From: a virus
Taxonomy: Duplodnaviria; Heunggongvirae; Uroviricota; Caudoviricetes
Strand: one strand, 5' to 3'
Virus record (IMG/VR): IMGVR_UViG_3300042922_000906
Location: 40,054 to 104,053 of that record
Length of the DNA stretch: 64,000 nucleotides
Numbering within the stretch: the stretch's first letter is position 1; each line of letters opens with the position of its first letter. The position numbers and the translations under genes are program-made. Positions 839-50,925 of the stretch are shown one piece after another. A model generated the notes under the pieces. The model was not told the origin of the DNA and made no database searches. It was given only the letters and a program-made list of their open reading frames with translations.

Positions 839-1318
839 ATGTCTGAAGCAATTAAGACACAAGATATAAATGAGTTAGAATATGGTGCTCAATATAAACA
901 ACATATATTAGAACAATATAAGTTATATGTAGAAATGGCTGACAGAATAAGCCAAAGAAGAATAACATCAAATACATTCTTTGTAACACTTACATCTTTA
1001 ATACTCACAACCTACGGAGTCATAAAGTCTTCATTATTTGTGCCAAGTATTTGTATTTTATTTGCTGGAGTGCTTTTATCGTTTTCTTGGTATAATATAG
1101 TAAATAGTTATAAACAAATTAACTCAGTAAAATGGCATTTAGTACATGAAATCGAAAAGTCGTTACCAATATGCCCATATACTTACGAATGGATAAAAGC
1201 AGGAGAAGGTAAAGTAAAAAAGAAATATAATCCTACGAGCCATATAGAAAAAAAATTACCATTAATATTTGGCTTGATATTTTTGGTACTTTTAATAAAC
1301 AGTATATTTACATATTAG
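839..1318 (+). CDS. small polytopic membrane protein (about 3 TM), candidate effector partner of the downstream TIR protein
   Basis: SD GGAGGGGG lies before the ATG. Hydrophobic helices: FFVTLTSLILTTYGVI, FVPSICILFAGVLLSFSWYNIV and a C-terminal LPLIFGLIFLVLLINSIF. It ends 18 nt before the TIR gene. Confidence 0.5.
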   Translation: MSEAIKTQDINELEYGAQYKQHILEQYKLYVEMADRISQRRITSNTFFVTLTSLILTTYGVIKSSLFVPSICILFAGVLLSFSWYNIVNSYKQINSVKWHLVHEIEKSLPICPYTYEWIKAGEGKVKKKYNPTSHIEKKLPLIFGLIFLVLLINSIFTY

Positions 1319-1335
1319 AAAGTGAGGTCTTTAGT

Positions 1336-1746
1336 ATGCCAGACTTAAAAACTTATGACTTATTTATAAGTCACGCTTGGGATTACAATAGTGAATATTA
1401 TAATCTAGAAAGAATGTTAAAGGACGCACCATATTTTTATTTTAGAAATTATAGTGTACCTCAACATGATAGTTTGCAAGTTAATACCGACTATGCTCTT
1501 GATGATGGACTATGGAAACAAATTAGACCAGTAAACACTGTATTAATTTTATCTGGAATGTATTACAATCATAGAAAATGGATTCAGAGAGAAATAGAGA
1601 TTGCTCAAGCTCTAAATAAACCAATAATTGGTGTTATTCCTTGGGGGCAAGAGAGAATTCCATCGGAAGTAAGTGGAGTTGCGAAAACAATGGTTCATTG
1701 GAACACATCATCAATAATTGATGCAATAAGAAATTACTCAATATAA
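1336..1746 (+). CDS. standalone TIR-domain protein (ThsB-like, putative NADase)
   Basis: N-terminal beta-A motif YDLFISHAWDY. An alphaC-like motif RKWIQREIEIA gives the W-x3-E arrangement typical of catalytic TIR NADases. A beta-D-like PIIGVIPWG is also present. Length 136 aa. Confidence 0.6.
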   Translation: MPDLKTYDLFISHAWDYNSEYYNLERMLKDAPYFYFRNYSVPQHDSLQVNTDYALDDGLWKQIRPVNTVLILSGMYYNHRKWIQREIEIAQALNKPIIGVIPWGQERIPSEVSGVAKTMVHWNTSSIIDAIRNYSI

Positions 1747-2047: not shown

Positions 2048-2204
2048 TCTATATTACATTAACTAAATAAAATCCAAAATTTGTTATTTAAATGTTAATT
2101 GTTTTATTTCTGCCCTCTCTTATCCAAAATACTAACTATTCAATCCCTATTATATGCTGTACAATAATTTTGTAAACACTAATTTAGAGAGGATTGCAGC
2201 AGAT

Positions 2205-2924
2205 ATGGAAAAAATTAAAGTAATCGTTGCAGATGATAATGAAGTAATTTTAGAAGTCATGAAAGAATTAATTAACGGGCAAACGGATATGGAGGTTATA
2301 GGCGAATATAATAACGGGGAATCGGCTTATGAAGCAATAATAAAAATGCAACCTGATGTTATTATTTTGGATATATTAATGCCTATATGGGATGGATTAG
2401 AAGTATTAAAGCAGCTAAGAAATAATTATAACAAGAAAATTACTAAAATAGTTTTTTCAAGTGAGGCAAAAGAAGTTCAAAGAAAATTGGCAGATGGTGT
2501 TTTAGATGATGTATATTACTTTACAAAACCCTTTAAATTTGAGTTGTTTATTGAAAGAATTAAAATGGCATATTATGAGAGCAGTAAAAAGGATGCTGAA
2601 CATATAATTCATGAGTTTTTAGAAGGACTAGTGTTAACTGAATCAGGAAAGAAATATATATCACAAAGTGTAATGCTTCTGATCAATGATAGAACTTTAT
2701 TAACCAAGGATTTTTGTACAATTATCGCCAACAAGGAAGGGACTACTTGGAACAATATTCAAAGAAAAATAAGATATTCAATAGAACTTGCTTATAAGAG
2801 TTCTGAAAGTAGTAAATTGAATACTGCATTTGGACAATCAACATTAGGAACATTTAAAATGGACTTAAATATCAAAACTATGTTATTACATTTTAGTGAT
2901 AAGGTAAGTAAAATGATGGCCTGA
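2205..2924 (+). CDS. spo0A: Spo0A-like response regulator (receiver domain plus Spo0A_C-like DNA-binding domain)
   Basis: From the ATG at 2205 the N-terminus reads MEKIKVIVADDNEVILEVMKELINGQTDMEVIGEYNNGESAYEAIIKMQPDVIILDILMPIWDGLEVLKQL. This parallels B. subtilis Spo0A MEKIKVCVADDNREL...PDVLVLDIIMPHLDGLAVLERL, including the phospho-acceptor Asp. The C-terminus IIHEFLEG...RKIRYSIELAY...AFGQST resembles the Spo0A_C core (IIHEIGVP...RVERAIRHAIEVAW...LFGYT). Confidence 0.7.
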   Translation: MEKIKVIVADDNEVILEVMKELINGQTDMEVIGEYNNGESAYEAIIKMQPDVIILDILMPIWDGLEVLKQLRNNYNKKITKIVFSSEAKEVQRKLADGVLDDVYYFTKPFKFELFIERIKMAYYESSKKDAEHIIHEFLEGLVLTESGKKYISQSVMLLINDRTLLTKDFCTIIANKEGTTWNNIQRKIRYSIELAYKSSESSKLNTAFGQSTLGTFKMDLNIKTMLLHFSDKVSKMMA

Positions 2925-10486: not shown

Positions 10487-11023
10487 ATGAAAGCAACTGG
10501 AATAGTTAGACGTATAGACGATTTAGGAAGAGTTGTAATACCTAGAGAAACACGGAGAGCATTAAGAATTAAAGAAGGAGATCCTCTGGAGATTTTTATT
10601 GAAGATGGTGGAGTAATATTAAAAAAATACAGACCATTTCAAGATTTAATGGAATTTTCAGAGAAGTACGCAGAGTCTTTACATAAAACCTCTGGACATA
10701 TTTGTTTCATTACTGATAGAGATACAATAATTTCTGTAAATGGTACATCTAAAAGAGATTTTCTTGAAAAACCTATTAGTGAGAAGTTGGAAAATATTAT
10801 TGATGAAAGACATTTGTTTATCACAAATACCGAACAGATAAATATAGTTAATGGTCAGAGCTTGAATTTTCATTCTATCATAATAAAACCAATTATGTCT
10901 GAAGGTGAAACCTGTGGTTCAGTAATACTTGCAAGTACAGTTAATAATATAGTTTTTGGAGAAGTTGAAATTAAACTTGTTGAAAATGCAGCCGATTTTT
11001 TAGGTAAACAACTAGAAGATTAA
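10487..11023 (+). CDS. spoVT: SpoVT-like regulator (AbrB-type swapped-hairpin N-domain plus GAF-like C-domain)
   Basis: The N-terminus GIVRRIDDLGRVVIPRETRRALRIKEGDPLEIF is the AbrB/SpoVT DNA-binding fold. Total length 178 aa with a C-terminal sensory domain, matching SpoVT architecture. Confidence 0.75.
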   Translation: MKATGIVRRIDDLGRVVIPRETRRALRIKEGDPLEIFIEDGGVILKKYRPFQDLMEFSEKYAESLHKTSGHICFITDRDTIISVNGTSKRDFLEKPISEKLENIIDERHLFITNTEQINIVNGQSLNFHSIIIKPIMSEGETCGSVILASTVNNIVFGEVEIKLVENAADFLGKQLED

Positions 11024-13744: not shown

Positions 13745-14248
13745 ATGTACAAATTAATGAAAAAGTTAGCAGGTATAATTGCTGCATACAAAGTAAATCG
13801 CTTAAAGGATTTCTCAACATTAGAAAATGCTTTGTTAAAAAAGAAAAAGAAGCATGTAAAAGTAACTAGAGAAGATGCGTTGTCTGTATATAGTTATATT
13901 TATACTGGATTATTATTAGAATTATTTATTTTATTTGTAATATCTATAATTGCAATTATTCTTAATATAATTATACCAACAATTGCAATACTAATACCTT
14001 TTTTAGTATTTAGGTTTATATTTAAAGGCAATCATTTAAATGGTTATTATAGGTGTTTAATATTTACAACAAGTTATATAATTCTTGCCGCCTTTATTTC
14101 AAGTCTAATAATACCAGCAAGTTTAAATTTATTGTTAAAATTTATTTGTTATGTTAGTATAGGGCTAGGATTAGAGTTGATTTCATTGACGAGCTGGTTT
14201 AATAAAATTTTAGATCAGATAAATAGATTTAATATTAATAAGACATAG
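13745..14248 (+). CDS. AgrB-like polytopic membrane protein (tentative)
   Basis: Four hydrophobic helices. A His-x6-Cys arrangement (KGNHLNGYYRC) follows TM2, as in the AgrB catalytic H77/C84 pair. Confidence 0.3.
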   Translation: MYKLMKKLAGIIAAYKVNRLKDFSTLENALLKKKKKHVKVTREDALSVYSYIYTGLLLELFILFVISIIAIILNIIIPTIAILIPFLVFRFIFKGNHLNGYYRCLIFTTSYIILAAFISSLIIPASLNLLLKFICYVSIGLGLELISLTSWFNKILDQINRFNINKT

Positions 14249-15397: not shown

Positions 15398-16300
15398 ATG
15401 AAAACTTTTTATGACAAATTTAAATCATACAATAAACCGATCTACGAAAATAAAAATTGGATTGATATGAAAGAAGTATCCAGACTAGTTAATTTAGCCA
15501 AAGGTAATCGAAATACTTCTCAATTTCTAACAGATATGAATTTGACATGTGAAACAGAACAAATTATTGATATGATAAATGGCCGGTATAATTCTTGTAT
15601 AAGACTACATCACTTGAAAAAGATTGCAAAAGCATCTGAAGGAAGAGTGGATTTTGATCAGCTAAATGCTATATTTAAATTTATGGAAAATAATTCTTTG
15701 GATGAATTAAAGAATATTAATATCGAGCGTAGTGATATTTGTCAAGTTAATCTTGGCGAAGCGCTTGACAATGAGCATGGTGGCATAAAGATGTGCGTGG
15801 TTATTTCAAATAATAAAGGAAATGGTTCAAGTGCAACTTTTCAATTAATCCCTTTGTCTTCATCTATCGGGAAAAATTACATTCCTTCACATGTGCCTGT
15901 GGGTTTGGAATCAGGAATATTAAAACCTTCTGTAGCAATGATTGAACAACTTAGAGTTAAAACAAAGGCAAGTCTTTTATTTGATGGTGAGATAATTAAA
16001 GTCGGAAAAGTATCTGAAGCAACCATGATAAAAATAGAATCAGCGATTAAAAAGCAGTTTGGTATGATTAGTCTTAATTTTAATCCAAGATTTGCGGAAG
16101 AAATGGTAAGAGCAATATTAGGAGTTATGAATGTAGTTGAAGATGATGATAATCTTGTTATAGCTAAAAACCTCTTATGGAAAGATCTTGAAGCTTATTG
16201 TGCAGATTATGATAAGGATGCCAAATCAATTTTTAATGAGTTTACAACTAAAATTGCGCGCGGTGAACCTGTTTTTAAGAGATTCTGTCTTGTCGGCTGA
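15398..16300 (+). CDS. MazF/PemK-fold endoribonuclease-domain protein with N- and C-terminal extensions
   Basis: The central region GDICQVNLGEALDNEHGGIKMCVVISNN...FQLIPLSSS...PSHVPV parallels the MazF core (GDIvlvdF.P..GsEq.g.RPavVls...vvPiTs). Confidence 0.5.
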   Translation: MKTFYDKFKSYNKPIYENKNWIDMKEVSRLVNLAKGNRNTSQFLTDMNLTCETEQIIDMINGRYNSCIRLHHLKKIAKASEGRVDFDQLNAIFKFMENNSLDELKNINIERSDICQVNLGEALDNEHGGIKMCVVISNNKGNGSSATFQLIPLSSSIGKNYIPSHVPVGLESGILKPSVAMIEQLRVKTKASLLFDGEIIKVGKVSEATMIKIESAIKKQFGMISLNFNPRFAEEMVRAILGVMNVVEDDDNLVIAKNLLWKDLEAYCADYDKDAKSIFNEFTTKIARGEPVFKRFCLVG

Positions 16301-20450: not shown

Positions 20451-20948
20451 ATGATAAAAATAGTTGAAGGAAATATATTAGATGCAAATGAAAAACTGAT
20501 ATGTCAGCAAGTGAACTGTCAGGGTGTAATGGGTTCTGGATTAGCAAAGCAACTTAAAGATAAATATCCAAAGTTATATCCTTCATATAAGAAATTTTGT
20601 GAAGGTTGTAAAGATAATAATCCAAGAACATTATTGGGAGAGTTTCAAACTGTGCCTATGCCTGATGGAAAAGTAATAGTTAATTTGTTTGGTCAATTTG
20701 ACTTTGGAAGAGATAAAAAATATACAGATTATGATGCATTAAGAAATAGTTTAGAAAATATATTATTTGTTGCAAAAGAATGTGGAAATGATTCAATTGC
20801 TATTCCTTATAATCTAGGCTGTGGATTAGCTGGTGGTGATTGGAATATAGTTTACAAAATAATTGAAGATGTGTTTCAAGATTATGATGTAACTATTTAT
20901 TACCTAATAGGTAATAAAAATCATGTTTTAAGCAGAGGATTAAAATAA
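20451..20948 (+). CDS. macro-domain protein (ADP-ribose binding / ADP-ribosyl hydrolase family)
   Basis: Begins GNILDANEKLICQQVNCQGVMGSGLAKQLK, the N..(V/A)N..G.MG.G(L/I)A signature of macro domains. Length 165 aa. Confidence 0.65.
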   Translation: MIKIVEGNILDANEKLICQQVNCQGVMGSGLAKQLKDKYPKLYPSYKKFCEGCKDNNPRTLLGEFQTVPMPDGKVIVNLFGQFDFGRDKKYTDYDALRNSLENILFVAKECGNDSIAIPYNLGCGLAGGDWNIVYKIIEDVFQDYDVTIYYLIGNKNHVLSRGLK

Positions 20949-21927: not shown

Positions 21928-22377
21928 ATGATGGATAAATTAACAAAATCACTTAAATGTTCTTTCTGTGGTAAATCTCAAAACCAAGTTAAGAGATTGA
22001 TTGCGGGGCCGGGTATTTATATATGTGATGAATGTGTAGATTTGTGTTCAGAAATTATTGAAGAAGAATCTGATATAAAAGTAGATGATTTACTTGATGA
22101 TGTACCGACTCCAAGCATAATTAAAAAATATCTTGATCAGCATGTTATAGGACAAGAAGAAGCTAAAAAATCATTAAGTGTAGCTGTTTATAATCACTAC
22201 AAAAGAATAAATTCTTTAAAGAAAAAGAAAAAATCAGATGATGTAGAAATTCAGAAAAGCAATATACTCATGATCGGTACTACGGGTATAGGAAAAACTG
22301 AATTGGCTAGAACAATAGCGAAAATGCTAAAACTTCCCTTTGCTATTGCTGATGCCACTACGTTAACGGAAGCAGGG
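21928..22377 (+). CDS. clpX: ClpX ATP-dependent protease ATPase subunit, exon 1 (zinc-binding domain plus Walker A)
   Basis: Zinc-binding domain [30 protein letters not shown] and Walker [17 protein letters not shown]. The frame ends ...[10 protein letters not shown] followed by TA, at the intron boundary. Confidence 0.8.
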
Positions 22378-23549
22378 TAAAGGTTTTAAAAAATATTTCA
22401 TATTTTATTCGCATTATTCAAAATTAAGGACGGTAAAGATATATAAGTGATATTGTAAACTATAATTCAGCTATGGAAGATTATATAAATAAACATTTGT
22501 CATTAAGCAAGTTAGCAGAAATTTATAAAATCTCTAGATATAAGCTAACAAAATTATTAAATAAGAATGGTATCAAGATTAGGAATCATAATATTGTTGA
22601 TGTGAACTATAAGGTTGATAATTGCTACTTTGATAAAATTAATACCGAATCAAAAGCGTATTGGCTTGGATTTATTTATGCAGATGGATGTATTAATACG
22701 AGTGGGAATAGTTTAAGATTTTCAATTGAATTAGCCGATTACGATTTTAACCATTTAAAAAAATTTAGAAAAGCAATTAAATCTAATCATCCAATTACTG
22801 AAAGACAAAATAGCAAAAGAAATACATGCAATATTTCAATTAATAGTCGAAACATTGTAAATAAACTAATAGACATTGGATGTGTTACAAATAAAACATA
22901 TAATGGATTTATAGACCCAAACATTTTAAAAACAACAGAAATGAAAATTGCTTTTATTAGAGGTTATTTAGATGGAAATGGTTATATTGACAAGGGTGAC
23001 AAGTATAGAATTGTATTCACATTACAATCAGAAAAATTGGTTGAAGATTTAAATATAATGATAAGAGAGTTAAAAATACATACAAGAATACAAAAAGATC
23101 AAGAATATTTTAGAATACATATTGAAAGAAAAAATGATTTTTATCAACTATTAAATCTAATATATAAAAATGCGAGTATATATTTAGATAGAAAATATGA
23201 AATATTTTTAAGAAGAACAATGCCGTTTGGTCAAGAAACTGACCAAATAATTAGTGCGAAATTAAGCTGGGAAGTCCTTCCAAACATGTACGAACATAAA
23301 GGTAATGTTTTAGGATAATCAGAACCGAAGGCTAATTTTAAAAGATTAGTCAGGGGCAGAGCATAGAGATTGAAATTATATATTCCATTAATATATAAAA
23401 TATAATATCTCCACGAGGTCGCACTACCTAACCTTATATTATAAAAATTTATGGAATTTGATGATTAATATAAGTATGGTAAAAAGATATGCCGAACAAG
23501 TTTGTAATGAACTTGAGGTAAAGATAAAAAGCTTTACGATAACAAATTG
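22378..23549 (+). mobile_element. group I intron interrupting clpX (approx. 1172 nt; 5' exon ends in U, intron ends in G)
   Basis: Joining 22377 to 23550 gives ...[41 protein letters not shown], matching the ClpX consensus across the junction. The insert carries a free-standing LAGLIDADG ORF and about 230 nt of 3' structured sequence. Confidence 0.6.
22473..23318 (+). CDS. LAGLIDADG homing endonuclease (double-motif, intron-encoded)
   Basis: Two dodecapeptide motifs are present: WLGFIYADGCI and IRGYLDGNGYI. Length 281 aa. Confidence 0.75.
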   Translation: MEDYINKHLSLSKLAEIYKISRYKLTKLLNKNGIKIRNHNIVDVNYKVDNCYFDKINTESKAYWLGFIYADGCINTSGNSLRFSIELADYDFNHLKKFRKAIKSNHPITERQNSKRNTCNISINSRNIVNKLIDIGCVTNKTYNGFIDPNILKTTEMKIAFIRGYLDGNGYIDKGDKYRIVFTLQSEKLVEDLNIMIRELKIHTRIQKDQEYFRIHIERKNDFYQLLNLIYKNASIYLDRKYEIFLRRTMPFGQETDQIISAKLSWEVLPNMYEHKGNVLG

Positions 23550-24352
23550 ATGTCGGAGATGACGTAGAAAACATATTGTTAAAACTTCTGCAAGCAGCGG
23601 ACTTTGATGAAGAGCTAGCACAGAAAGGGATTATCTATATTGATGAAATTGATAAAATTGCACGAAAAGGTGAAAATACATCAATTACAAGAGATGTTAA
23701 TGGTGAGGGAGTACAACATGCGTTATTAAAAATACTTGAAGGTACAGTAGCAAGAGTTCCACCACAGGGAGGACGTAAACACCCTCATCAGGAGTGTATT
23801 GAAATAGATACAAGTAATATTCTGTTTATTTGCGGTGGTGCATTTGATGGTATTGATAAGATACTTTCTCAAAAAAATAAGACTGAAAAGAGTATAGGGT
23901 TTGGTGCTTCAGTAAGCAGTAAAATAGAAAACAATAATACAAATTTATTAGAAACAATTGAACCTCATGATTTTGTGAAGTATGGTTTAGTGCCAGAATT
24001 AGTTGGAAGATTACCTGTGATAACTACACTGCAACCATTAGATAAAAATGCGTTATTAAGAATATTAACTGAACCTAAAAATGCAATAGTTAAGCAATAT
24101 CAGAAATTGCTTAATATTGACAATGTTAACCTCGAATTTGAAAATGATGCACTGGAGGAAATTGTTAATAAAGCAATTGAAAGAAAGACTGGTGCTAGAG
24201 GTTTAAGAGGAATACTGGAAAGTGTTATGAAGAATGTTATGTTTGAAATCCCCGATATAAAAAATGCAAAGAAAGTTGTTATTACAAAAGGTGTTGTATT
24301 AGGGCTAGAAAATTCAGTTATTTATGATAGTAAGAATAAAGTTATTGCATAG
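23550..24352 (+). CDS. clpX: ClpX ATPase, exon 2 (Walker B / sensor / C-terminal domain)
   Basis: [10 protein letters not shown] (Walker B), [11 protein letters not shown] and [11 protein letters not shown] all match ClpX. The exon starts at the A of the codon TAT. Confidence 0.8.
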
Positions 24353-24365
24353 AAAGGATAAAAAT

Positions 24366-24917
24366 ATGAAATCAGCTATATCTATTAATCAAAGTGATAA
24401 ACATGCAATCAAAACTTTAAGCGACCACCTTTATGACCTGATTATCAATTTGGATAAAAAGTTTAATAAAATCATATTTGTTTGTATCGGTACAGATCGA
24501 AGTACAGGCGATTCGCTTGCTCCAATAGTAGGTAGTAAAATACATAAGAAATACAATGTTTATGGAACTCTTGAAAATCCAGATCATGCAAAAAATCTAG
24601 AAGAAACTATGAATATGATTGATACTAAAAACAATCTCATTATTGCAATTGATGCCTGTTTAGGTAAGTCGGAGAATGTTGGTAATATTAATATTCATAA
24701 CGGTTCGCTAAAGCCTGGTTCTGCTGTTGGCAAAGATTTAATGGCGGTTGGTGATATTAGTATATCTGGAATAGTTAATTTCAGCGGCTTTATGGACTTC
24801 CTTATACTACAAAATACTAGATTAAGCATTGTAATGAATTTGAGTAATATTATATCAAAAGTTATTTGTAAAACTATGAAGCAAGTAAATAAGGAAAATA
24901 TAAAAAAGAGTGCTTAA
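24366..24917 (+). CDS. yyaC: YyaC-family sporulation protein (GPR-like protease fold)
   Basis: IIFVCIGTDRSTGDSLAPIVG...GTLENPDHAKN...IIAIDACLGK...GSLKPGSAVGKDL...ISISGIVNFSGFMDFLILQNTRLSIVMN aligns along its whole length with B. subtilis YyaC. The start is set at the ATG behind an AAAGGA SD. Confidence 0.8.
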   Translation: MKSAISINQSDKHAIKTLSDHLYDLIINLDKKFNKIIFVCIGTDRSTGDSLAPIVGSKIHKKYNVYGTLENPDHAKNLEETMNMIDTKNNLIIAIDACLGKSENVGNINIHNGSLKPGSAVGKDLMAVGDISISGIVNFSGFMDFLILQNTRLSIVMNLSNIISKVICKTMKQVNKENIKKSA

Positions 24918-32476: not shown

Positions 32477-32704
32477 AATAATATAGTATATCGTTTGTAG
32501 GTAACGTATAACCTTCAATCCATAAGGATGTAACAAAATGGCTAATGTGCATGACTTTGACTCATGAAATAGAGTTTCGATTACTCTCATCCTTGCCAAT
32601 AACATCGTGTAATTGCTGTTGTGCTTTGTTATTCATGTGTACCCTCCTTTTTTTGAAAGCGTTTGTAGGTATCGCTTGAGAAATCAGAATAACCTTCAGA
32701 TATA

Positions 32705-32780
32705 TTGCGGATTAGCCAAGTAGGTAAGGCAGTAGATTTTGATTCTATCATACTCAGGTTCAAGTCCTGAATCCGTAGCC
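32705..32780 (+). tRNA. tRNA-Gln (anticodon UUG), CCA encoded
   Basis: Hand-folded cloverleaf. Acceptor stem TGCGGAT/ATCCGTA with a U1:A72 pair and G73, as in bacterial tRNA-Gln. U8 is present. The D-arm has GG in its loop. Anticodon stem GTAGA/TCTAT with loop TTTTGAT (U33, UUG, A37). T-arm TCAGG-TTCAAGT-CCTGA. The 3' CCA lies at 32778-32780. Confidence 0.8.
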
Positions 32781-33156
32781 AATTAATTTAATAAAGGTGA
32801 CTGAAAGTTTAGGGTTAAGGCTTAGACAAAACCAATAAACGATGATGAGTAACGAGGGTGACAGCTTATATGTCTTGAATATACCTAAAGTGGGTATCTA
32901 GGAAGATTAGTTGAAATGATACATACTACTTCCAAAAACTATAATAATTTGACGTGATACTGTGTCTAGGATATTTTGAATATTACTAGAATCGTGAAAA
33001 TTGGAGTTACTAATTAAGTCGGCCGAAGTAGTCAATATAAGTGAACGTGCTATATAAGCTAAATGGTTCTACCTGTATTAAATTAAATACCATAAAATGG
33101 ACATTTTAATGTGTGATTAAATAAAATATTATACATAAGGAAGGAAATAGAAAAAA

Positions 33157-34440
33157 ATGAAAGAATTATTAGAGGTTAAAATACTAATTGATAAGATTGC
33201 AGAGACATCTAGTAGGAATGAAAAAGAAGCAATACTAAAAGATTATAAAGCAGTTCCACTATTTAGAGAAATTTTATACTTTGTTTATTCACCATATATT
33301 CTTACAGGAATAAGCAAGAAGAAAATATCTAAACAGGTTGGTATGATTAATGGTTTTAGTAAACCACAAAACATAAAAGAATTAATGGATTATCTAAGAA
33401 TACATAATTCTGGTAGAGATGTTGATATATCAACATGTGAATGCTTTTATACAAACTTTGATAATGAACTTCAAGACTTTATTAAAAAGATTGTTACTAA
33501 AGATGTGGTTATTGGAATTACTGCCGACAGTATAAATAAGGCATTTGGTGAAGAGTTTATTCCAACATTTGATGTTATGTTGGCAAAGAAATATGATGAA
33601 CATAAAGACAAAGTTAAAGGGAATTTTGTAATAACTCAGAAACTTGACGGAAATAGAATTGTGCTTATTAAAGAGAACGGTTTGATAAAAACATTCACTA
33701 GACAGGGAAAACAATATGAAGGTTTGGAAGAAATAGAATCTGACTTTAAAGATATTCCAATTGATAATATTGTATTTGATGGCGAATTAATTGCTGATGT
33801 AAAAGGAAGTACACATGAAATATATACTGAAACTACAAGTAAGGCAAGAAGTAAGGGAAGCAATAAAACAGGATTGTTATTTTATGTGTTTGATGTTTTA
33901 CCTTTGAAAGAATTTCAAAGTGGCAAATCAAATTTAAATGCCATACAAAGAAAATTGAACTTGAGTGATATTTTTAATAAATTTACTTTGCAACATTGTA
34001 TTGAGGTTAAACCATTATATACTGGCTCTGATGTTACTCAAATCGATAAGTGGATGGAATATGCTAATCAAAACGCATGGGAAGGTTTAATGATTAATCT
34101 TGATAAGCCCTATGTTTGTAAGAGAACAGATTCTATTTTAAAAGTTAAAGGCATGAATACATGCGATCTGAAAGTAATAGGTTTCGAAGAAGGAACTGGA
34201 AGAAATGAAGGAAAACTAGGTGCTTTGTTGGTAGGTTATAAGGGTTATACAGTTGGTGTTGGTAGCGGATTTACTGATGCAGACAGAGATTATATTTGGA
34301 ATCATTTAAAAGAATATGATGGTAAAATAGTTGAAATCCAATATTTCGAAGAATCTAAAAACCAAGATGGTGGATTATCATTAAGATTTCCTGTATTCCT
34401 TAGAAAGAGAGAAGAAGGTAAGGAAGTGAGTTATAATTAA
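33157..34440 (+). CDS. ATP-dependent DNA ligase
   Basis: Motif I QKLDGNR (KxDG), motif III VFDGELI, motif IV WEGLMI and motif V ILKVKG are all present, with a C-terminal OB-fold region. Length 427 aa. Confidence 0.85.
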   Translation: MKELLEVKILIDKIAETSSRNEKEAILKDYKAVPLFREILYFVYSPYILTGISKKKISKQVGMINGFSKPQNIKELMDYLRIHNSGRDVDISTCECFYTNFDNELQDFIKKIVTKDVVIGITADSINKAFGEEFIPTFDVMLAKKYDEHKDKVKGNFVITQKLDGNRIVLIKENGLIKTFTRQGKQYEGLEEIESDFKDIPIDNIVFDGELIADVKGSTHEIYTETTSKARSKGSNKTGLLFYVFDVLPLKEFQSGKSNLNAIQRKLNLSDIFNKFTLQHCIEVKPLYTGSDVTQIDKWMEYANQNAWEGLMINLDKPYVCKRTDSILKVKGMNTCDLKVIGFEEGTGRNEGKLGALLVGYKGYTVGVGSGFTDADRDYIWNHLKEYDGKIVEIQYFEESKNQDGGLSLRFPVFLRKREEGKEVSYN

Positions 34441-39078: not shown

Positions 39079-40383
39079 ATGAGTTATAACGCTTATATAA
39101 CAAAAATCAAGAATATAAGAAAACATACAAATGCAGACAGATTACAAGTAGGTGAATGTTTTGAAAACTTTGTTATTGTTAGTATGGATACACGAGACAA
39201 TGAACTAGGAGTGTACTTCCCAACTGATGGACGGTTAGGTACTGAATACTGTGAATCCAACAATCTACTAAGAAAGAAAGACGAAAATGGTAATAATATT
39301 GGCGGTTATTTAGAACCCGAAAAAAGACATATATCATCGTTGAAATTTCGTGGTGAAAAATCAGATGGTTTATTTATGCCACTAAAGAGCCTCGAAAACT
39401 TTTGTAATATTTCAGATTTAAAAGAAGGAGATATTATTACAACTTTAAATGGAACTTTAATATGTGAAAAATACATACCAAAATCTAATAGAAGAAATAA
39501 TGCTCTAACTAACAATAAAGAAAAGAAGAAGCTTATAGATAAAATATCTTATCCTATGTTTGAAGAACATATAGATACATCACAACTGGCATATAATTTG
39601 AATCAATTCAAACAGGGTGATTTATGTTATATAACTCTTAAAATGCATGGTACATCTCAAAGAACAGCTTATACTATTCAAGAGTTTCTAAAAAAAAGGA
39701 ATTTAATCCAAAGAATATTTAAGTTAAAAAATAAAATAAATAAGTCATGGCAATATGTTAGTGGCACAAGACGTTGTATTTTAATGAATTTTGATAATGG
39801 ATTTTATGGAAATGACTTGTTCAGAAAAACATTCCATGATTACTTTGTTGGGAAGTTATATAAGGGCGAAGAAGTGTTTTATGAAGTTGTTGGATATGTA
39901 AATGAAAATACTACCATCATGCCAGAATGCAATAATAAAAAAACCAATGATAAAGAATTTATCAAGCAATATGGAGAAACAACAAGATTTACATATGGAT
40001 GTGGTGTAGGTCAAAGTGATATTTATGTTTATAGAATAACCAAAACAGATGAAGATGGGAATATTGTTGAATATCCTTGGCATTTAGTCAAGTTGAGATG
40101 TGACCAAATGGGAGTTAAACATGTTCCAGAATTTGATAAATTTATATATTCTACTCAAGAAGATTTGATGAATCGAGTTAATGTATATGTAGATGGAACT
40201 GACCCAATAGGCAAAACTCATGTTAGAGAAGGTGTGGTTATAAGAATAGAAAACAGAGAAAAATTTTCTGCCTTTAAACATAAGAATTTTAATTTTAAAG
40301 TATTAGAAGGAATTATCAAAGCAAATGATGTTTTAGATATGGAGGAGGCTAATAGTGAAGAATTATCAACAAATAATGAATAG
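39079..40383 (+). CDS. RNA ligase (Rnl2-type nucleotidyltransferase motifs with an N-terminal OB-like domain)
   Basis: Motif I LKMHGTSQ (KxHG as in T4 Rnl2 KIHG), motif IV REGVVIRIEN (EGxV) and motif V AFKHKNF (K..K). The N-terminus IRKHTNADRLQVGEC is OB / tRNA-binding-like. Confidence 0.6.
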   Translation: MSYNAYITKIKNIRKHTNADRLQVGECFENFVIVSMDTRDNELGVYFPTDGRLGTEYCESNNLLRKKDENGNNIGGYLEPEKRHISSLKFRGEKSDGLFMPLKSLENFCNISDLKEGDIITTLNGTLICEKYIPKSNRRNNALTNNKEKKKLIDKISYPMFEEHIDTSQLAYNLNQFKQGDLCYITLKMHGTSQRTAYTIQEFLKKRNLIQRIFKLKNKINKSWQYVSGTRRCILMNFDNGFYGNDLFRKTFHDYFVGKLYKGEEVFYEVVGYVNENTTIMPECNNKKTNDKEFIKQYGETTRFTYGCGVGQSDIYVYRITKTDEDGNIVEYPWHLVKLRCDQMGVKHVPEFDKFIYSTQEDLMNRVNVYVDGTDPIGKTHVREGVVIRIENREKFSAFKHKNFNFKVLEGIIKANDVLDMEEANSEELSTNNE

Positions 40384-41155
40384 ACTTCAGGAGCATTATA
40401 GTGAAGTTGAAAATATGGGATATGAAATTGTAGGAGTGTTTCTTCAAGGTAGCCAGAATTATGATTTAGCTTATAAAAATAGTGATATAGATAGTAAGGC
40501 TATATTGCTTCCAAAATTCAATGATTTTGTATTAAATAATAAGGTAGTAAGCATAACTCATGTGATGAAAAATAATGAACATATAGATTTGAAAGATATT
40601 AGATTAATGTTTGATTGCTTTAAGAAACAGAATATAAACTTTGTGGAAATTCTATTTTCAAAATATAAAATTATTAATCCTAAGTATGAAAAGTTTATGC
40701 AAAAGCTATTTGACAATAATGAAAAGATAGCAAGATATAATAATTATGCTTCTTTAAACTGCATCAGTGGAACTACTATGGAGAAGTATAAGGCACTAGA
40801 ACATCCATATCCTACACTTATAGATAAGATTGAAAAATATGGGTACGACCCAAAACAGTTGCATCACATTATCAGACTTAATGAATTTATCAAAAGATAT
40901 CTAGCAGGAGAAAAATATTCCGATTGTTTAGTATCGAAGAATAAAGAATATTTAATTGGAGTTAAGAAAGGTATTCACACTTTAGAAGAAGCAAGAGCAT
41001 TAGCAAAGACACTATCTGATGATACTTATCAAATAAAAACTAATTACATGAATAATAATCCAGTTCGAATTGTTAAAGAATGTGAAGATATTTTAAATGG
41101 TGTCTTGTTGGATATAATGAAGCACAACTTTAAATGTGAGTTAAGTGAGGTTTGA
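40355..41155 (+). CDS. pol-beta-superfamily nucleotidyltransferase
   Basis: GVFLQGSQNYDLAYKNSDIDSKAI gives the hG[GS] ... DxD arrangement. Confidence 0.5.
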   Translation: MKNYQQIMNRLQEHYSEVENMGYEIVGVFLQGSQNYDLAYKNSDIDSKAILLPKFNDFVLNNKVVSITHVMKNNEHIDLKDIRLMFDCFKKQNINFVEILFSKYKIINPKYEKFMQKLFDNNEKIARYNNYASLNCISGTTMEKYKALEHPYPTLIDKIEKYGYDPKQLHHIIRLNEFIKRYLAGEKYSDCLVSKNKEYLIGVKKGIHTLEEARALAKTLSDDTYQIKTNYMNNNPVRIVKECEDILNGVLLDIMKHNFKCELSEV

Positions 41156-42059
41156 AATGAATAAGTTTATTATGATGGTTGGACTTCCTGCAAGTGGTAA
41201 ATCTACTATTGCAGAAGAACTATCGAGAGAAGAAAATGCTATTGTTCATGCTTCAGATAGATTAAGGAAAGAGTTATTTGGAGATGAAAATGCAAATGAT
41301 AAAAATGTTGAGCTATTTAAAGAGTTACATAAGAGAATTAAAAATGATTTAAGTGAAGGCAAAAATGTAATTTATGATGCTACAAACATAAACTATAAGC
41401 GCAGGAAAGCTTTTCTTGAAGAATTGAAGAACATCAGTTGTAAAAAGATTTGTTATTTAATTGCTACTCCATATGAAGAGTGTTTGGAGCAAAATAAACT
41501 CAGAGAAAGATTCGTTCCAGAGCATGTAATTAAAAAAATGTATCTTGGTTTTTATATTCCTCAATATTATGAAGGTTGGGATAAAATTGAAATCGTTTAT
41601 ACTAGAAATAGTGGGAAACGAATTACAGATTTATTGCAACGTTTAAAAGAAATAGACCAAGAAAATAAACATCACACTTTAACTATAGGAAATCATTGTT
41701 CACAATGTTTAAATTACATTGAAAAGAAAGTAGATGACATTAATTTATCTTATGCAGCTTTATTGCATGATATAGGGAAGGAGTTTACCAAAGAATATAA
41801 AAACTCAAAAGGCGAAGATACTATCGAAGCACATTATTTTCAACATCACTTAGTATCTGCTTATGATTCACTATTTTATTTGGATGGTGCTCAGAACTCT
41901 AACTTTATTTTAATAGAAACAGTTGCTTTAATTATGTGGCATATGCAACCATTCTTTATAGAAACTGAAAAAGCCAAGAAAAAGTTTATAAGATTGGTTG
42001 GTCAAGAGTTTTATGATAAGTTGATGATTTTACATGAGGCAGATAAGATGGCTCATTAG
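41145..42059 (+). CDS. P-loop polynucleotide kinase fused to an HD phosphohydrolase (Pnkp-like RNA end-healing enzyme)
   Basis: N-terminal Walker A MMVGLPASGKST and VIYDATN, as in T4 Pnk. The C-terminal HD domain reads HH...ALLHDIGK...H...D. Confidence 0.6.
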   Translation: MRFEMNKFIMMVGLPASGKSTIAEELSREENAIVHASDRLRKELFGDENANDKNVELFKELHKRIKNDLSEGKNVIYDATNINYKRRKAFLEELKNISCKKICYLIATPYEECLEQNKLRERFVPEHVIKKMYLGFYIPQYYEGWDKIEIVYTRNSGKRITDLLQRLKEIDQENKHHTLTIGNHCSQCLNYIEKKVDDINLSYAALLHDIGKEFTKEYKNSKGEDTIEAHYFQHHLVSAYDSLFYLDGAQNSNFILIETVALIMWHMQPFFIETEKAKKKFIRLVGQEFYDKLMILHEADKMAH

Positions 42060-46077: not shown

Positions 46078-46107
46078 TTGACAATATTCAATCTAAAATA
46101 TTATAAT
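46078..46107 (+). promoter_or_regulatory. sigma-A-type promoter (TTGACA, 18 nt spacer, TATAAT)
   Basis: Consensus hexamers. Confidence 0.5.
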
Positions 46108-48609: not shown

Positions 48610-48636
48610 TGATTTTATGTGACGAAGGGAGAAAAT

Positions 48637-49419
48637 ATGATAAAAGTTAATGGTTTTCTTGTTGGAAACGAGTGTTTTCCTAATAATGAAAGGATATTAA
48701 AAATAAATGATTTTGGTGATAAATACTTTGATATTGAATTTAAGTACGAAACAGATATTGACATTTCTATTTTAATAATGGTCAAGAAGTACCTAGATGA
48801 TACATATCCTAATTCATACATACATTTAATAATGAAGTATGTTCCATACTCAAGAATGGATAGAAAAATTGAAGGATATATGTTCAGCCTTAAGTATTTT
48901 TGTCAGCTAATAAATGATTTACATTTTAGTGATGTTCAGGTATTAGATACACACTCAAATGTAACAACTGCTTTACTTGATAGATGTACGGAAATGAGCA
49001 TTCAAGATAATATCAGTAGAATATTTTCAAATATTCATATTGATTATGTTTTTTATCCTGATAACGGAGCAATGAAAAGATATAGTGAAATTCTTAAAAT
49101 TCCAGTACCATACTTCTACGGAAATAAGAAAAGAAATCTTAATACTGGTGAAATTGTCGGCTATGAATTAGTAGATTGTCCAGACATTAAGGATAAAGAT
49201 ATTTTAATAATAGATGACTTGTGTGCAAAAGGATTTACATTCTATAATGCAGCACAAAAGTTAAAAGACAATGGAGCTAATAATATTAATTTATATGTAT
49301 CTCATTGTGAAAATTCTATTTATCAAGGACAATTACTGAAATCTGATCTAATTAAGACCATATTTACAACTGATTCAATTTTAACTGATTGGTCAAGTAA
49401 AATATTATATAATGTCTAA
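48637..49419 (+). CDS. ribose-phosphate pyrophosphokinase-family enzyme (Prs-like; candidate ADP-ribose pyrophosphokinase of a phage NAD+ pathway)
   Basis: KYVPYSRMDRK parallels the Prs segment IPYFGYARQDRK. ILIIDDLCAKGFTF is the C-terminal PRPP-binding loop. The start is set at the ATG behind a GAAGGGAG SD. Confidence 0.65.
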   Translation: MIKVNGFLVGNECFPNNERILKINDFGDKYFDIEFKYETDIDISILIMVKKYLDDTYPNSYIHLIMKYVPYSRMDRKIEGYMFSLKYFCQLINDLHFSDVQVLDTHSNVTTALLDRCTEMSIQDNISRIFSNIHIDYVFYPDNGAMKRYSEILKIPVPYFYGNKKRNLNTGEIVGYELVDCPDIKDKDILIIDDLCAKGFTFYNAAQKLKDNGANNINLYVSHCENSIYQGQLLKSDLIKTIFTTDSILTDWSSKILYNV

Positions 49420-49440
49420 CAAGAATAAGAGGAGAAAAGA

Positions 49441-50925
49441 ATGAATAAAAATTATATCTATCCAGCAACATTATTGTGTGACTTTTACAAGGTGTCTCAT
49501 AGAGAACAATATCCAAAGGGAACAGAGATTGTATACAGTACATGGATACCAAGAGCAAGTAGAATAACTGGAATTGACAAGGTAGTTGCTTTTGGGTTTC
49601 AAGCATTTATTAAAGAATATATCATTAAATATTTTAATGACAATTTCTTTAATAGGCCAAAGAATGAAGTAATAGAAGAATACATAAGGGTTATAAAAAA
49701 TACATTAGGTATACAAAATCCAGATGCTAGTCATATCGAAGAATTATATGATTTAGGGTATATGCCTATTAAGATTAAAGCGGTTAAAGAAGGTACTTTA
49801 GTTCCTTTGCGAGTACCAATGTTGACAATTGAAAATACTGAACTTAGATTCTTCTGGTTAACAAACTATCTGGAAACACTCATGTCTTGTGCTATGTGGA
49901 TACCATCCACCAGTGCAACAATAGCATTTGAATATAGAAAAATACTTGAAAAATATGCAAAGGAAACTGTAGGTAATATTGAAGGAGTTCAATTCCAAGG
50001 TCATGATTTTAGTATGAGGGGTATGGGTGCATTAGATTCAGCAAAAGTTAGTGGAGCTGGACATTTACTTTCATTTGTAGGTACAGATACAATTCCTGCA
50101 ATACTATTTACCGAAGAATTCTATAATGCAAATATTGAACAAGAATTAATAGGCACTTCAATACCAGCTACCGAACATTCAGTACAATGTGCTTATGGAA
50201 GAGACGAGTTCTCATCTTATAAAAGAATTATTACTGAAATATATCCAAGTGGTTTTGTTTCAATTGTTAGTGACACATGGGACTTGTGGAAGGTATTAAC
50301 CGATGTTGTTGCTAAATTAAAGACAGAGATAATGTCTAGAGACGGTAGAGTAGTAATTAGACCAGATAGCGGTGATCCAGTAAAAATTATTTGTGGAGAC
50401 CCCAAATCAGATAATGAACTTGAAAGAAAAGGTGTGGTTGAAGTTCTATGGGATATTTTTGGTGGAACTATCACAGCGAAAGGCTATAAGCAGCTTGAAA
50501 CACATATCGGATGTATTTATGGAGATGCCATAACCCTTGAAAGGGCAACCGCAATATGCGAAGGGTTAAAAGCTAAAGGATTCGCTTCAACAAATACAGT
50601 GTATGGTATTGGCTCATTTACATATCAGTATAATACAAGAGATACTTTTGGATTTGCTTTGAAATCTACGCATGTTGTCATTGATGGTATAGATCAAAAT
50701 ATTTATAAAGACCCTGCGACAGATAAAGATAAGATTAAAAAATCATTGATAGGTAGAGCGTGTGTATTAAATGACAGAGGGTATATTCATACCATAGACG
50801 GATTATCAATAGTACAACAGAGTAATTGTAGAGCGGATATTCTTGAAGATCTTTTTGTTGACGGTGAATTACTGAGAGATGAAAACTTTATCGATATTAG
50901 AAATAGATTGTTATCAAATCTTTAA
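49441..50925 (+). CDS. nadV: nicotinamide phosphoribosyltransferase family (NadV/Nampt-like)
   Basis: 494 aa. The N-terminus YPATLLCDFYKVSHREQYP reads as the conserved Nampt start, and GTDT and related motifs are present. Confidence 0.75.
   Translation: MNKNYIYPATLLCDFYKVSHREQYPKGTEIVYSTWIPRASRITGIDKVVAFGFQAFIKEYIIKYFNDNFFNRPKNEVIEEYIRVIKNTLGIQNPDASHIEELYDLGYMPIKIKAVKEGTLVPLRVPMLTIENTELRFFWLTNYLETLMSCAMWIPSTSATIAFEYRKILEKYAKETVGNIEGVQFQGHDFSMRGMGALDSAKVSGAGHLLSFVGTDTIPAILFTEEFYNANIEQELIGTSIPATEHSVQCAYGRDEFSSYKRIITEIYPSGFVSIVSDTWDLWKVLTDVVAKLKTEIMSRDGRVVIRPDSGDPVKIICGDPKSDNELERKGVVEVLWDIFGGTITAKGYKQLETHIGCIYGDAITLERATAICEGLKAKGFASTNTVYGIGSFTYQYNTRDTFGFALKSTHVVIDGIDQNIYKDPATDKDKIKKSLIGRACVLNDRGYIHTIDGLSIVQQSNCRADILEDLFVDGELLRDENFIDIRNRLLSNL

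What the first reader, a model, noticed from the sequence alone, without database searches (positions are those of the whole stretch)
48637..50925. NAD+ salvage or reconstitution pair (Prs-like pyrophosphokinase plus NadV/Nampt-like phosphoribosyltransferase)
Adjacent genes encode a PRPP-synthetase-fold enzyme (VPYSRMDRK, IIDDLCAKGFTF) and a 494-aa Nampt-family enzyme. Phages use such pairs either for classical NAD+ salvage (NadV with a PRPP supply) or, as recently described, for an NAD+ reconstitution pathway. In that pathway a Prs-like ADP-ribose pyrophosphokinase and a Nampt-like transferase rebuild NAD+ from ADPR plus nicotinamide, neutralising NAD+-depleting immunity (TIR, SIR2, SEFIR). 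This window also carries its own TIR gene, so a conflict-related role is plausible.
Basis: partly seen in the sequence, partly recalled or inferred. Interest (0 to 1): 0.7.

Follow-up and report, generated by a model that had tools for sequence, protein, structure and literature searches.

The report
Phage NARP1 operon (Adps plus Namat)
Two adjacent phage genes encode the known two-enzyme NARP1 pathway, which rebuilds NAD+ from ADP-ribose and nicotinamide after a bacterial defence has cleaved it; this is a clear but ordinary new example of a system found in about 4% of sequenced phages.

Summary
Window 48637-49419 (+, 260 aa) and 49441-50925 (+, 494 aa) are real, tightly linked genes, each with its own ribosome-binding site.

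The 494-aa protein is a Namat, not a plain NadV/Nampt. It is 67% identical to the crystallised SPbetaL1 Namat (PDB 9W5W/9W5X). All 21 NAD+-contacting residues are identical, including the adenine clamp motif GSFTYQYNTRD and Arg41.

The 260-aa protein is an Adps, not a Prs:
- It scores below every NCBIfam Prs cut-off.
- It is 42% identical to SPbetaL1 Adps and about 20% identical to canonical Prs.
- It groups with both biochemically validated Adps enzymes; the split from seven canonical Prs has 100% bootstrap support.
- It lacks the Prs C-terminal module.
- It keeps the catalytic Lys, the TG(E/D)I hairpin and the Phe cap.
- Its ribose-5-phosphate loop is altered (DDLCAKGFT versus DDMIDTGGT).

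No NMN adenylyltransferase domain was found among window ORFs of at least 120 aa. No Macro gene lies inside the operon.

Verdict: a two-gene NARP1 in an uncultivated, 28% GC phage whose exact Adps protein is also recorded on a 140.8-kb contig, probably infecting a spore-forming Firmicute. It is a new member of a known kind, and interest is low.

The more interesting result is a side observation in related loci: PncA-Adps-Namat-like-NadE clusters in which the nicotinamide-specifying Asp is replaced.

The parts
48625..48631 (+). Ribosome-binding site AAGGGAG, 5 nt upstream of the adps start codon
   Evidence: Read directly from the sequence.
48637..49419 (+). adps: ADP-ribose pyrophosphokinase (Prs-like, 260 aa). 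Predicted reaction: ADPR + ATP -> ADPR-PP + AMP.
   Evidence: ORF. phrog_619 at 222.8 bits, but TIGR01251 at 83.8 bits against a cut-off of 113. Best phage hit is SPbetaL1 Adps at 42% identity and 177 bits; E. coli Prs gives 22% and 43.5 bits. Lies in the Adps clade with 100% bootstrap. Has K164, the TGEIV hairpin, F202, PP loop DDLCAKGFT and a truncated C-terminus.
49427..49434 (+). Ribosome-binding site AAGAGGAG, 6 nt upstream of the namat start codon, inside the 21-nt spacer between the two genes
   Evidence: Read directly from the sequence.
49441..50925 (+). namat: nicotinamide ADP-ribose transferase (Nampt-like, 494 aa). Predicted reaction: ADPR-PP + nicotinamide -> NAD+ + PPi.
   Evidence: 755 bits to PDB 9W5W/9W5X, the SPbetaL1 Namat, at 67% identity. 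All 21 NAD+ contact residues are identical, including R41, F393, Y397, T399, R400 and D401, the catalytic-core residues F190, R193, D216, R307 and D309, and His246. The SCH motif GSFTYQYNTRD contrasts with Xanthomonas Nampt GMGGALLQKVDRD.
20451..20948 (+). Unlinked Macro-domain gene (165 aa). Possible accessory only: a candidate ADPR-1''-phosphate phosphatase (Adpp-like) that could feed ADPR to Adps. It could equally be a DarG-like de-ADP-ribosylase.
   Evidence: PF01661 E 5.7e-9. phrog_335 'phosphatase' at 177 bits. 34% identical over its full length to Vibrio phage Dax gp176, which sits between the Prs-like and Nampt-like genes of that phage. Also matches the PADLOC DarG macro model at 87 bits. 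Its role is not established.

Best explanation
The pair is a two-gene NAD+ reconstitution pathway 1 (NARP1).

When an NAD+-depleting host defence (TIR, SIR2 or SEFIR effectors) cleaves NAD+ into ADP-ribose and nicotinamide, two reactions follow:
1. The 260-aa Adps transfers the beta,gamma-pyrophosphate of ATP onto the terminal ribose of ADPR, giving ADPR-PP.
2. The 494-aa Namat displaces that pyrophosphate with nicotinamide, giving NAD+ directly. No NMN intermediate or adenylyltransferase is needed.

Shown here: gene identity, gene adjacency, clade membership, and conservation of the published catalytic and specificity residues. Inferred by homology to SPbetaL1, FADO, ICP1 and Paenibacillus foliorum enzymes that were tested experimentally: the two reactions themselves and the counter-defence role.
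For: 1. Namat identity.
- 67% identity and 755 bits to SPbetaL1 Namat, whose structure with NAD+ is 9W5W.
- 21 of 21 published NAD+ contact residues are identical.
- The diagnostic motif GSX-phi-X-phi-X-phi-TRD with aromatic X is present as GSFTYQYNTRD, identical to SPbetaL1. The clamp-loop (SCL) Arg is present.
- Xanthomonas Nampt has GMGGALLQKVDRD at that place.
- The next-best phage hits include FADO (65.7%), whose NARP1 deletion sensitises it to DSR2.
- P. foliorum Namat, which is 71.9% identical to SPbetaL1 Namat, is enzymatically validated.

2. Adps identity.
- It falls below all Prs cut-offs.
- Its best hit among 50,697 phage records is SPbetaL1 Adps.
- In an NJ tree it is bracketed by the two biochemically validated Adps (SPbetaL1, ICP1) and separated from 7 canonical Prs in 100% of 300 bootstraps.
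- The catalytic Lys (ICP1 K185) is K164. Arg87, His121, Asp161 and Asp212/213 are conserved. The TG(E/D)I hairpin and the Phe221 cap are conserved in the Adps sequences and absent in E. coli Prs. The C-terminal alpha11-alpha12 module is absent.
- These features hold across 115 homologues.

3. Architecture. The genes are co-oriented and 21 nt apart. In the literature 97% of Adps-clade genes have a Namat neighbour.

4. No NMNAT or NUDIX domain was found among window ORFs of at least 120 aa.
Against: - Nothing was measured. The Adps is only 42% identical to the nearest enzyme with demonstrated activity.
- Its PP loop (A197, K198, F200) differs from both validated enzymes (SPbetaL1 S-F-G-G, ICP1 D-G-A-A). 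ICP1 Phe92, which stacks on the ADPR adenine, is Ile here, although it is Glu in the active SPbetaL1 enzyme.
- SPbetaL1 Namat still makes NMN from PRPP in vitro, so some classical Nampt activity is likely.
- Roughly 77 kb of the parent genome lies outside the window and could not be inspected. An NMNAT, NadR or PnuC elsewhere cannot be excluded.
- Many chromosomal, NrtR-linked adps-namat operons exist in bacteria. The pathway is therefore not intrinsically an anti-defence device.
Confidence: 0.88

Rival explanations
1. Classical nicotinamide salvage. The Prs-like enzyme makes PRPP and the Nampt-like enzyme makes NMN. A host or distal phage NMN adenylyltransferase then completes NAD+ (NARP2-like logic, or plain metabolic boosting).
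For: Database models name the proteins ribose-phosphate pyrophosphokinase and nicotinate/nicotinamide phosphoribosyltransferase. SPbetaL1 Namat retains about half of human Nampt activity on PRPP in vitro. The rest of the genome was not seen.
Against: - The full adenine clamp is present. It has little effect on PRPP chemistry and is specifically required for ADPR-PP-driven NAD+ synthesis.
- The Prs-like protein fails all Prs cut-offs, has an altered ribose-5-phosphate loop and falls in the Adps clade.
- SPbetaL1 Adps gave no measurable product in the control reaction run to test for Prs activity.
- No NMNAT was found in the window.
- The NARP1 discovery preprint (Osterman 2024) found no phage carrying both NARP1 and NARP2.
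Confidence: 0.04
2. Same chemistry, different purpose. The pair recycles ADPR produced by the phage's own or the host's normal NAD+-consuming enzymes (for example the phage TIR-like protein or ADP-ribosyltransferases). It would be a housekeeping economy measure rather than a counter-defence.
For: Adps-namat pairs are common in bacterial chromosomes next to the ADPR-sensing regulator NrtR: 59 of the 80 best loci. The closest bacterial Adps homologues (55% identity) sit in a chromosomal NAD operon. The window also carries a TIR-like gene and a Macro gene.
Against: In the tested phages (SPbetaL1, FADO, Bas63, ICP1-type) the pathway is needed specifically to overcome NAD+-depleting defences, and it does not raise NAD+ in defence-free cells. 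The window Namat is closest to those phage enzymes. No NrtR homologue was seen in the window.
Confidence: 0.08

Closest known systems
NARP1 of Bacillus phage SPbetaL1 (Adps WIT26982.1 / Namat WIT26983.1; Namat structures 9W5W, 9W5X)
   Same: Same gene order and orientation. Namat is 67% identical, with all NAD+ contacts and the clamp motif identical. Adps is 42% identical, with the same RMDR motif, catalytic Lys, TGEI hairpin, Phe cap and truncated C-terminus.
   Different: The genes are 21 nt apart instead of abutting. PP loop is DDLCAKGFT versus DDLSSFGGT. The host phage is unrelated at the DNA level (no megablast match). GC content is 28%.
Adps of Vibrio phage ICP1 (structures in apo, substrate and product states; PMC13586617)
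   Same: Same clade (100% bootstrap). F18, R87, H121, D161, K185, D212/D213 and F221 equivalents are all conserved. There is no alpha11-alpha12 module.
   Different: Only 27% identical. ICP1 D216, G217, A218 and A219 correspond to A, K, G and F here. Phe92 corresponds to Ile.
NARP1-AP (Adps-Adpp-Namat, Vibrio phage Gary type)
   Same: The window encodes a Macro protein 34% identical to the Macro gene that sits between the Prs-like and Nampt-like genes of Vibrio phage Dax.
   Different: The Macro gene is 28 kb away, not within two genes of the pair, so the published operational definition is not met. FADO, a phage with validated NARP1, has the same unlinked arrangement.
NARP2 (KVP40 Nampt + Nmnat)
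   Same: It uses a Nampt-family enzyme and nicotinamide.
   Different: NARP2 Nampt prefers PRPP and needs an Nmnat partner. Here the enzyme has the Namat clamp, an Adps partner, and no Nmnat in the window.
Bacterial nrtR-prs-nadV operons (Rodionov 2008) and bacterial NARP1 (Paenibacillus foliorum)
   Same: Homologous gene pair. Paenibacillus and Cohnella Namat are 65-68% identical to the window protein and carry the same clamp motif. P. foliorum enzymes regenerate NAD+ from ADPR and nicotinamide.
   Different: The bacterial pairs are chromosomal and usually adjacent to the ADPR-responsive repressor NrtR. The window pair sits among phage genes with no NrtR.
Canonical Prs (TIGR01251) and Nampt/NadV
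   Same: Same folds and the same core chemistry: pyrophosphoryl transfer from ATP, and nicotinamide displacement of pyrophosphate.
   Different: The acceptor or donor carries an extra AMP moiety. The Prs regulatory and filament elements are lost. An adenine clamp is gained.

Membership tests
NARP1 | adps and namat genes adjacent and co-oriented | tested here: met
   48637-49419 and 49441-50925, both on the + strand, with a 21-nt spacer.
NARP1 / Namat | Nampt-like catalytic core (SPbetaL1 F189, R192, D215, R306, D308 and the catalytic His) | tested here: met
   F190, R193, D216, R307 and D309 are identical, and the His of the conserved ATEHS segment is His246.
NARP1 / Namat | Clamp-helix motif GSX-phi-X-phi-X-phi-TRD with aromatic X (adenine stacking) | tested here: met
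   GSFTYQYNTRD at residues 391-401, identical to SPbetaL1. Xanthomonas Nampt has GMGGALLQKVDRD.
NARP1 / Namat | Clamp-loop stacking residue (Arg, Lys or Tyr at the third loop position) | tested here: met
   Arg41 aligns with SPbetaL1 Arg40.
NARP1 / Adps | Member of the Adps clade, separate from prokaryotic Prs | tested here: met
   NJ tree with 23 sequences, 257 columns and 300 bootstraps. The Adps versus Prs split has 100% support, and the window + SPbetaL1 subclade has 95%. The Prs sample is small (7 sequences, one of them partial).
NARP1 / Adps | Catalytic beta-hairpin Lys (ICP1 K185) and acceptor-groove residues R87, H121, D161, D212, D213 | tested here: met
   K164, R73, H106, D142, D193 and D194. 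All are at least 99% conserved in 115 homologues.
NARP1 / Adps | Loss of the Prs C-terminal alpha11-alpha12 module | tested here: met
   The protein ends 28 residues before the E. coli Prs C-terminus. Among homologues the median extension is 2 residues.
NARP1 / Adps | Adps-type PP loop for ATP donor binding | tested here: inconclusive
   DDLCAKGFTF keeps DD, G, T and the Phe cap. It differs from both validated enzymes at three positions. The loop is also variable between SPbetaL1 and ICP1.
NARP1 | ADPR + ATP -> ADPR-PP, then ADPR-PP + nicotinamide -> NAD+ | not testable with these tools
   Requires enzyme assays.
NARP1 | Rescues phage from NAD+-depleting defences | not testable with these tools
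   Requires plaque and NAD+ assays.
Canonical Prs (TIGR01251 and NCBIfam Prs equivalogs) | Score at or above the curated cut-off | tested here: not met
   83.8 bits versus 113. The equivalog models give 79 or less against cut-offs of 296-536.
Canonical Prs | Ribose-5-phosphate loop DD(M/I)IDTGGT | tested here: not met
   DDLCAKGFT. The Asp, Thr and second Gly of the loop are replaced by Ala, Lys and Phe.
NARP2 | Nampt partnered with an NMN adenylyltransferase in the same genome | tested here: inconclusive
   No NMNAT or NUDIX domain hit among window ORFs of at least 120 aa. About 77 kb of the parent genome was not available.
NARP1-AP | Macro-domain phosphatase within two genes of the NARP1 pair | tested here: not met
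   The seven small ORFs scanned on either side of the pair have no PHROG match. The only Macro gene found is at 20451-20948.

The most novel reading that the evidence does not exclude
The phage may run an extended, split version of the pathway. The unlinked Poa1p-like Macro protein (20451-20948) would dephosphorylate ADPR-1''-phosphate, the product of aRES-type defences, into ADPR for the Adps/Namat pair 28 kb away. That would give NARP1-AP-like breadth without operon linkage. If so, operon-based surveys would under-count NARP1-AP, because FADO-like Bacillus phages show the same unlinked co-occurrence.
Probability: 0.25. Interest if true: 0.4.

Novelty: new member of a known kind. Interest (0 to 1): 0.25.

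Why it matters
For the window itself the value is correct annotation. Pipelines would call these genes 'ribose-phosphate pyrophosphokinase' and 'nicotinate phosphoribosyltransferase', whereas they are a counter-defence module. It predicts that this uncultivated, probably Clostridia-infecting phage can overcome Thoeris type I, DSR, SIR2-HerA and SEFIR-type immunity.

It also extends validated-type NARP1 into a low-GC phage lineage that has no DNA-level (megablast) match among 50,697 phage records.

The wider point comes from relatives. Adps-namat pairs are abundant in bacterial chromosomes under the ADPR sensor NrtR. A PncA/NadE-linked form with a substituted nicotinamide-binding Asp hints at an undescribed deamido route.

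Tried and rejected
- Megablast of the pair against INPHARED gave no match, so the phage could not be named.
- The look-up of encoding contigs returned only 22-kb, 11-kb and 3.8-kb contigs, not the 140,832-bp contig listed for the identical Adps. IMG/VR holds no copy; the best match there is 63% identical. The rest of the genome therefore could not be checked for an NMNAT.
- PDB entry 9KE8 is a close Nampt-like relative (547 bits) with GAQTYQRNTRD instead of the aromatic clamp. It could not be traced to a paper, so it was not used as a comparator.
- A literature search for '8xMP' found nothing relevant.
- The promoter scan found 58 sites against 52.6 expected, so it is uninformative overall. 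No terminator-like site was found between 46000 and 53500.
- Rfam at gathering thresholds found only the two tRNAs, and no intron model in the split ClpX region.
- The first tree script timed out and the second failed on saturated distances. The third, with capped Kimura distances, worked.
- Structure prediction was considered and not run. At 67% identity to a solved Namat, and with PRPS-fold hits for Adps, it could not discriminate further.
- The GTG 48619 start was rejected in favour of ATG 48637, on the basis of the ribosome-binding site and independent gene calls.
Full report
**Observation.** The window is 26-32% GC, and the large majority of ORFs of 70 aa or more lie on the + strand. At the reported place there are two + strand ORFs: 48637-49419 (260 aa from the ATG) and 49441-50925 (494 aa). 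AAGGGAG lies 5 nt before ATG 48637, and AAGAGGAG lies 6 nt before ATG 49441. The GTG 48619 start listed by the ORF finder is therefore unlikely. Gene calls on two independent assemblies that carry identical proteins also give 260 aa. The quoted peptide strings are present. The first protein matches Pribosyltran and Pribosyl_synth; the second matches NAMPT_N and NAPRTase.

**The 494-aa protein is a Namat.** Its best solved relatives are 9W5W and 9W5X (755 bits). These are the NAD+- and nicotinamide-bound structures of SPbetaL1 Namat. Identity to that protein is 67%.
- The structure paper lists the residues that contact NAD+. It defines a 'selectivity clamp' made of a loop residue (Arg40) and a helix motif GSX-phi-X-phi-X-phi-TRD with aromatic X. 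The clamp is what makes the enzyme use ADPR-PP rather than PRPP, and its mutation abolishes counter-defence while sparing NMN synthesis.
- All 21 listed positions are identical in the window protein, and the motif GSFTYQYNTRD is letter-for-letter the SPbetaL1 one.
- Xanthomonas Nampt has GMGGALLQKVDRD at the same place.
- Among phage records the closest Namat homologues are in Alicyclobacillus and Bacillus phages. They include SPbetaL1 and FADO, both with experimentally validated NARP1.

**The 260-aa protein is an Adps.**
- It scores 83.8 bits on TIGR01251 against a cut-off of 113. It scores far below every Prs equivalog model, but 222.8 bits on phrog_619.
- Of 1275 phage records with a match, the best is SPbetaL1 Adps itself: 42% identity and 177 bits. 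E. coli Prs gives 22% and 43.5 bits. The best solved Prs, from archaea, gives 55 bits.
- The ICP1 Adps structure paper names the functional residues and family signatures. In the window protein, Phe18, Arg87, His121, Asp161, Lys185, Asp212, Asp213 and the Phe221 cap are all conserved. They correspond to F14, R73, H106, D142, K164, D193, D194 and F202.
- The hairpin motif TG(E/D)I is shared with the SPbetaL1, ICP1 and Dax Adps sequences and is absent in E. coli Prs.
- The protein stops 28 residues before the end of E. coli Prs, so it lacks the alpha11-alpha12 filament and regulatory module.
- The canonical ribose-5-phosphate loop DDMIDTGGT reads DDLCAKGFT.
- These features are conserved across 115 full-length homologues from metagenomes.
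- I built a neighbour-joining tree with two validated Adps, a third phage Adps (Vibrio phage Dax), six metagenomic relatives, six bacterial Adps-like proteins and seven canonical Prs. It separates Adps-type from Prs in 100% of 300 bootstraps. The window protein groups with SPbetaL1 Adps at 95% support. The Prs sample is small, so this is a placement test and not a full phylogeny.

**Pathway assignment.** NARP1 is defined by an Adps next to a Namat. Adps makes ADPR-PP from ADPR and ATP. Namat joins ADPR-PP to nicotinamide to give NAD+. This lets phages escape type I Thoeris, DSR1, DSR2, SIR2-HerA and SEFIR.
- NARP2 needs an Nmnat. I scanned all window ORFs of at least 100 aa as two pooled sets, and those of at least 120 aa in the first half individually. 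No NMN adenylyltransferase or NUDIX domain appeared.
- The published NARP1-AP variant has a Macro phosphatase within the operon. Here the seven small ORFs I scanned on either side of the pair have no PHROG match, so the pair is the plain two-gene form.
- No terminator-like site lies between 46000 and 53500, and a perfect TTGACA-18-TATAAT lies at 46078-46107. The pair is therefore probably part of a longer + strand transcription unit. This is weak evidence, because promoter-like sites are not enriched overall.

**Rivals.** Classical Prs + NadV salvage is disfavoured by every specificity test above. It is not strictly excluded, because SPbetaL1 Namat keeps PRPP activity in vitro and about 77 kb of the genome was not seen. 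A housekeeping ADPR-recycling role with the same chemistry is possible, given the bacterial distribution described below. However, the nearest characterised relatives are phage counter-defence modules.

**Genomic setting.** The DNA of the pair has no megablast match in INPHARED. Identical proteins occur on Logan and JGI metagenome contigs, and the Adps is recorded on a 140,832-bp contig.
- Phage identity is supported by PHROG hits to conserved phage proteins, a DnaB-like helicase and a Sak4-like annealase.
- Host-like genes point to a spore-forming Firmicute host, as do the 28% GC and the closest bacterial Adps homologue, in Oceanirhabdus seepicola (Clostridia). These genes are a Spo0A-like regulator, a SpoVT-like protein, AgrB, DUF1256, peptide deformylase, ClpX, an SPFH protein, and tyrosine recombinase/integrase-family genes.
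It belongs to the MTH538/ThsB TIR-like family, lies next to an 8xMP membrane-protein gene, and is 47 kb from the pair.
- A Macro gene at 20451-20948 belongs to the Poa1p-like 'phosphatase' PHROG. It is 34% identical to the Macro gene that lies between the Prs-like and Nampt-like genes of Vibrio phage Dax. It also matches the DarG macro domain, so its role is open.
- FADO has the same unlinked Macro plus NARP1 arrangement.

- Of the best 80 loci, 79 carry the clamp motif, 68 have an Adps-like gene within 6 kb, and 59 have an NrtR homologue.
- These are the 'nrtR-prs-nadV' operons of Rodionov 2008. Their extra prs paralogue was unexplained then, and their repressor is released by ADPR. Neither the Osterman 2024 preprint (the NARP1 discovery paper) nor the Namat structure paper mentions NrtR by name.
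- Separately, two clostridial chromosomal loci and six large IMG/VR viral contigs carry the cluster PncA-like, Adps-like, Namat-like and NadE; one viral contig also has a Macro gene in front.
- In all eight, the Asp that hydrogen-bonds the nicotinamide amide (SPbetaL1 D215) is Ser or Ala. In all 83 loci examined without PncA and NadE, it is Asp.
- SPbetaL1 D215 should correspond to human NAMPT D219. The human D219S mutant is tabulated as switching substrate affinity. The equivalence is my inference from the shared nicotinamide-binding role.
- This suggests a deamido route: nicotinic acid + ADPR-PP gives NaAD, and NadE then makes NAD+. I found no paper in the held library describing it. It is an untested idea.

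**Verdict.** The finding is real and the reconstitution reading is right. It is a standard NARP1, a system reported in 4.3% of phage genomes and already characterised structurally. It is a new member of a known kind, and interest is 0.25.

Noticed in passing
L011 7421-12112; L013 7426-12110; L095-L100 (for example L100 8966-13200, L096 9426-13791): Two clostridial chromosomes and six large IMG/VR viral contigs carry PncA-like, Adps-like, Namat-like and NadE genes. The chromosomal loci also have NrtR, and L100 has a Macro gene in front. In all 8, the nicotinamide-binding Asp (SPbetaL1 D215) is Ser or Ala and A242 is Ser. In 83 loci without PncA and NadE it is always Asp. This could be a deamido NARP1 that makes NaAD from nicotinic acid + ADPR-PP and is finished by NadE. 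No paper in the held library describes it.
   Followed up: partly
L014-L093: Adps-namat pairs with the full Namat clamp motif are common in bacterial chromosomes (Paenibacillus, Cohnella, many Bacteroidota). 59 of the 80 best loci include an NrtR homologue. These look like the 'nrtR-prs-nadV' operons of Rodionov 2008, reinterpreted as ADPR-induced ADPR recycling.
   Followed up: partly
window 839-1746: An 8xMP octameric membrane-protein gene (839-1318, E 2e-36) lies directly upstream of a 136-aa ThsB/MTH538-type TIR-like gene (1336-1746, E 1e-13; phrog_6988). This may be a phage-borne two-gene TIR module. Its function is unknown.
   Followed up: partly
window 20451-20948: A Macro-domain protein that matches phrog_335 'phosphatase', is Poa1p-like, is 34% identical to the operon-embedded Macro of Vibrio phage Dax, and also gives 87 bits to the DarG macro domain. 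It lies 28 kb from NARP1, as in Bacillus phage FADO.
   Followed up: partly
window 21928-24352: ClpX appears split. The N-terminal zinc finger plus the start of the AAA domain is at 21928-22380. A LAGLIDADG endonuclease ORF is at 22473-23318. The AAA_2/D2-small C-terminal part is at 23576-24352. All three are in different frames. Rfam found no intron at gathering thresholds.
   Followed up: partly
window 2154-2924, 10487-11023, 13745-14248, 24324-24917: The phage carries sporulation and quorum-sensing-type host regulators: a Spo0A-like response regulator, a SpoVT-like protein, AgrB and DUF1256.
   Followed up: no
window 33157-34440 and 39079-42059: An ATP-dependent DNA ligase, and an apparent RNA-repair cassette made of an RNA ligase, a nucleotidyltransferase (phrog_388) and a kinase/HD phosphatase-like protein. 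The cassette may counter anticodon nucleases.
   Followed up: no
window 32524-32781: Two tandem tRNA-Gln(UUG) genes about 110 nt apart.
   Followed up: no
window 15398-16300: A 300-aa protein with a PemK/MazF toxin domain in residues 110-221 and extra N- and C-terminal regions. No separate MazE antitoxin was identified; the only MazE_antitoxin-domain hit is the N-terminal domain of the SpoVT-like protein at 10487-11023.
   Followed up: no
window 46078-46107: A perfect sigma-70 consensus (TTGACA, 18 nt, TATAAT) lies just upstream of ORF 46127. With no terminator-like site up to 53500, it may drive the unit that contains the NARP1 pair.
   Followed up: no
window 49441-50925: The NCBIfam equivalog NF006629 'nicotinate phosphoribosyltransferase' is passed at 552 bits (cut-off 405). 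Standard annotation would therefore misname this Namat.
   Followed up: yes
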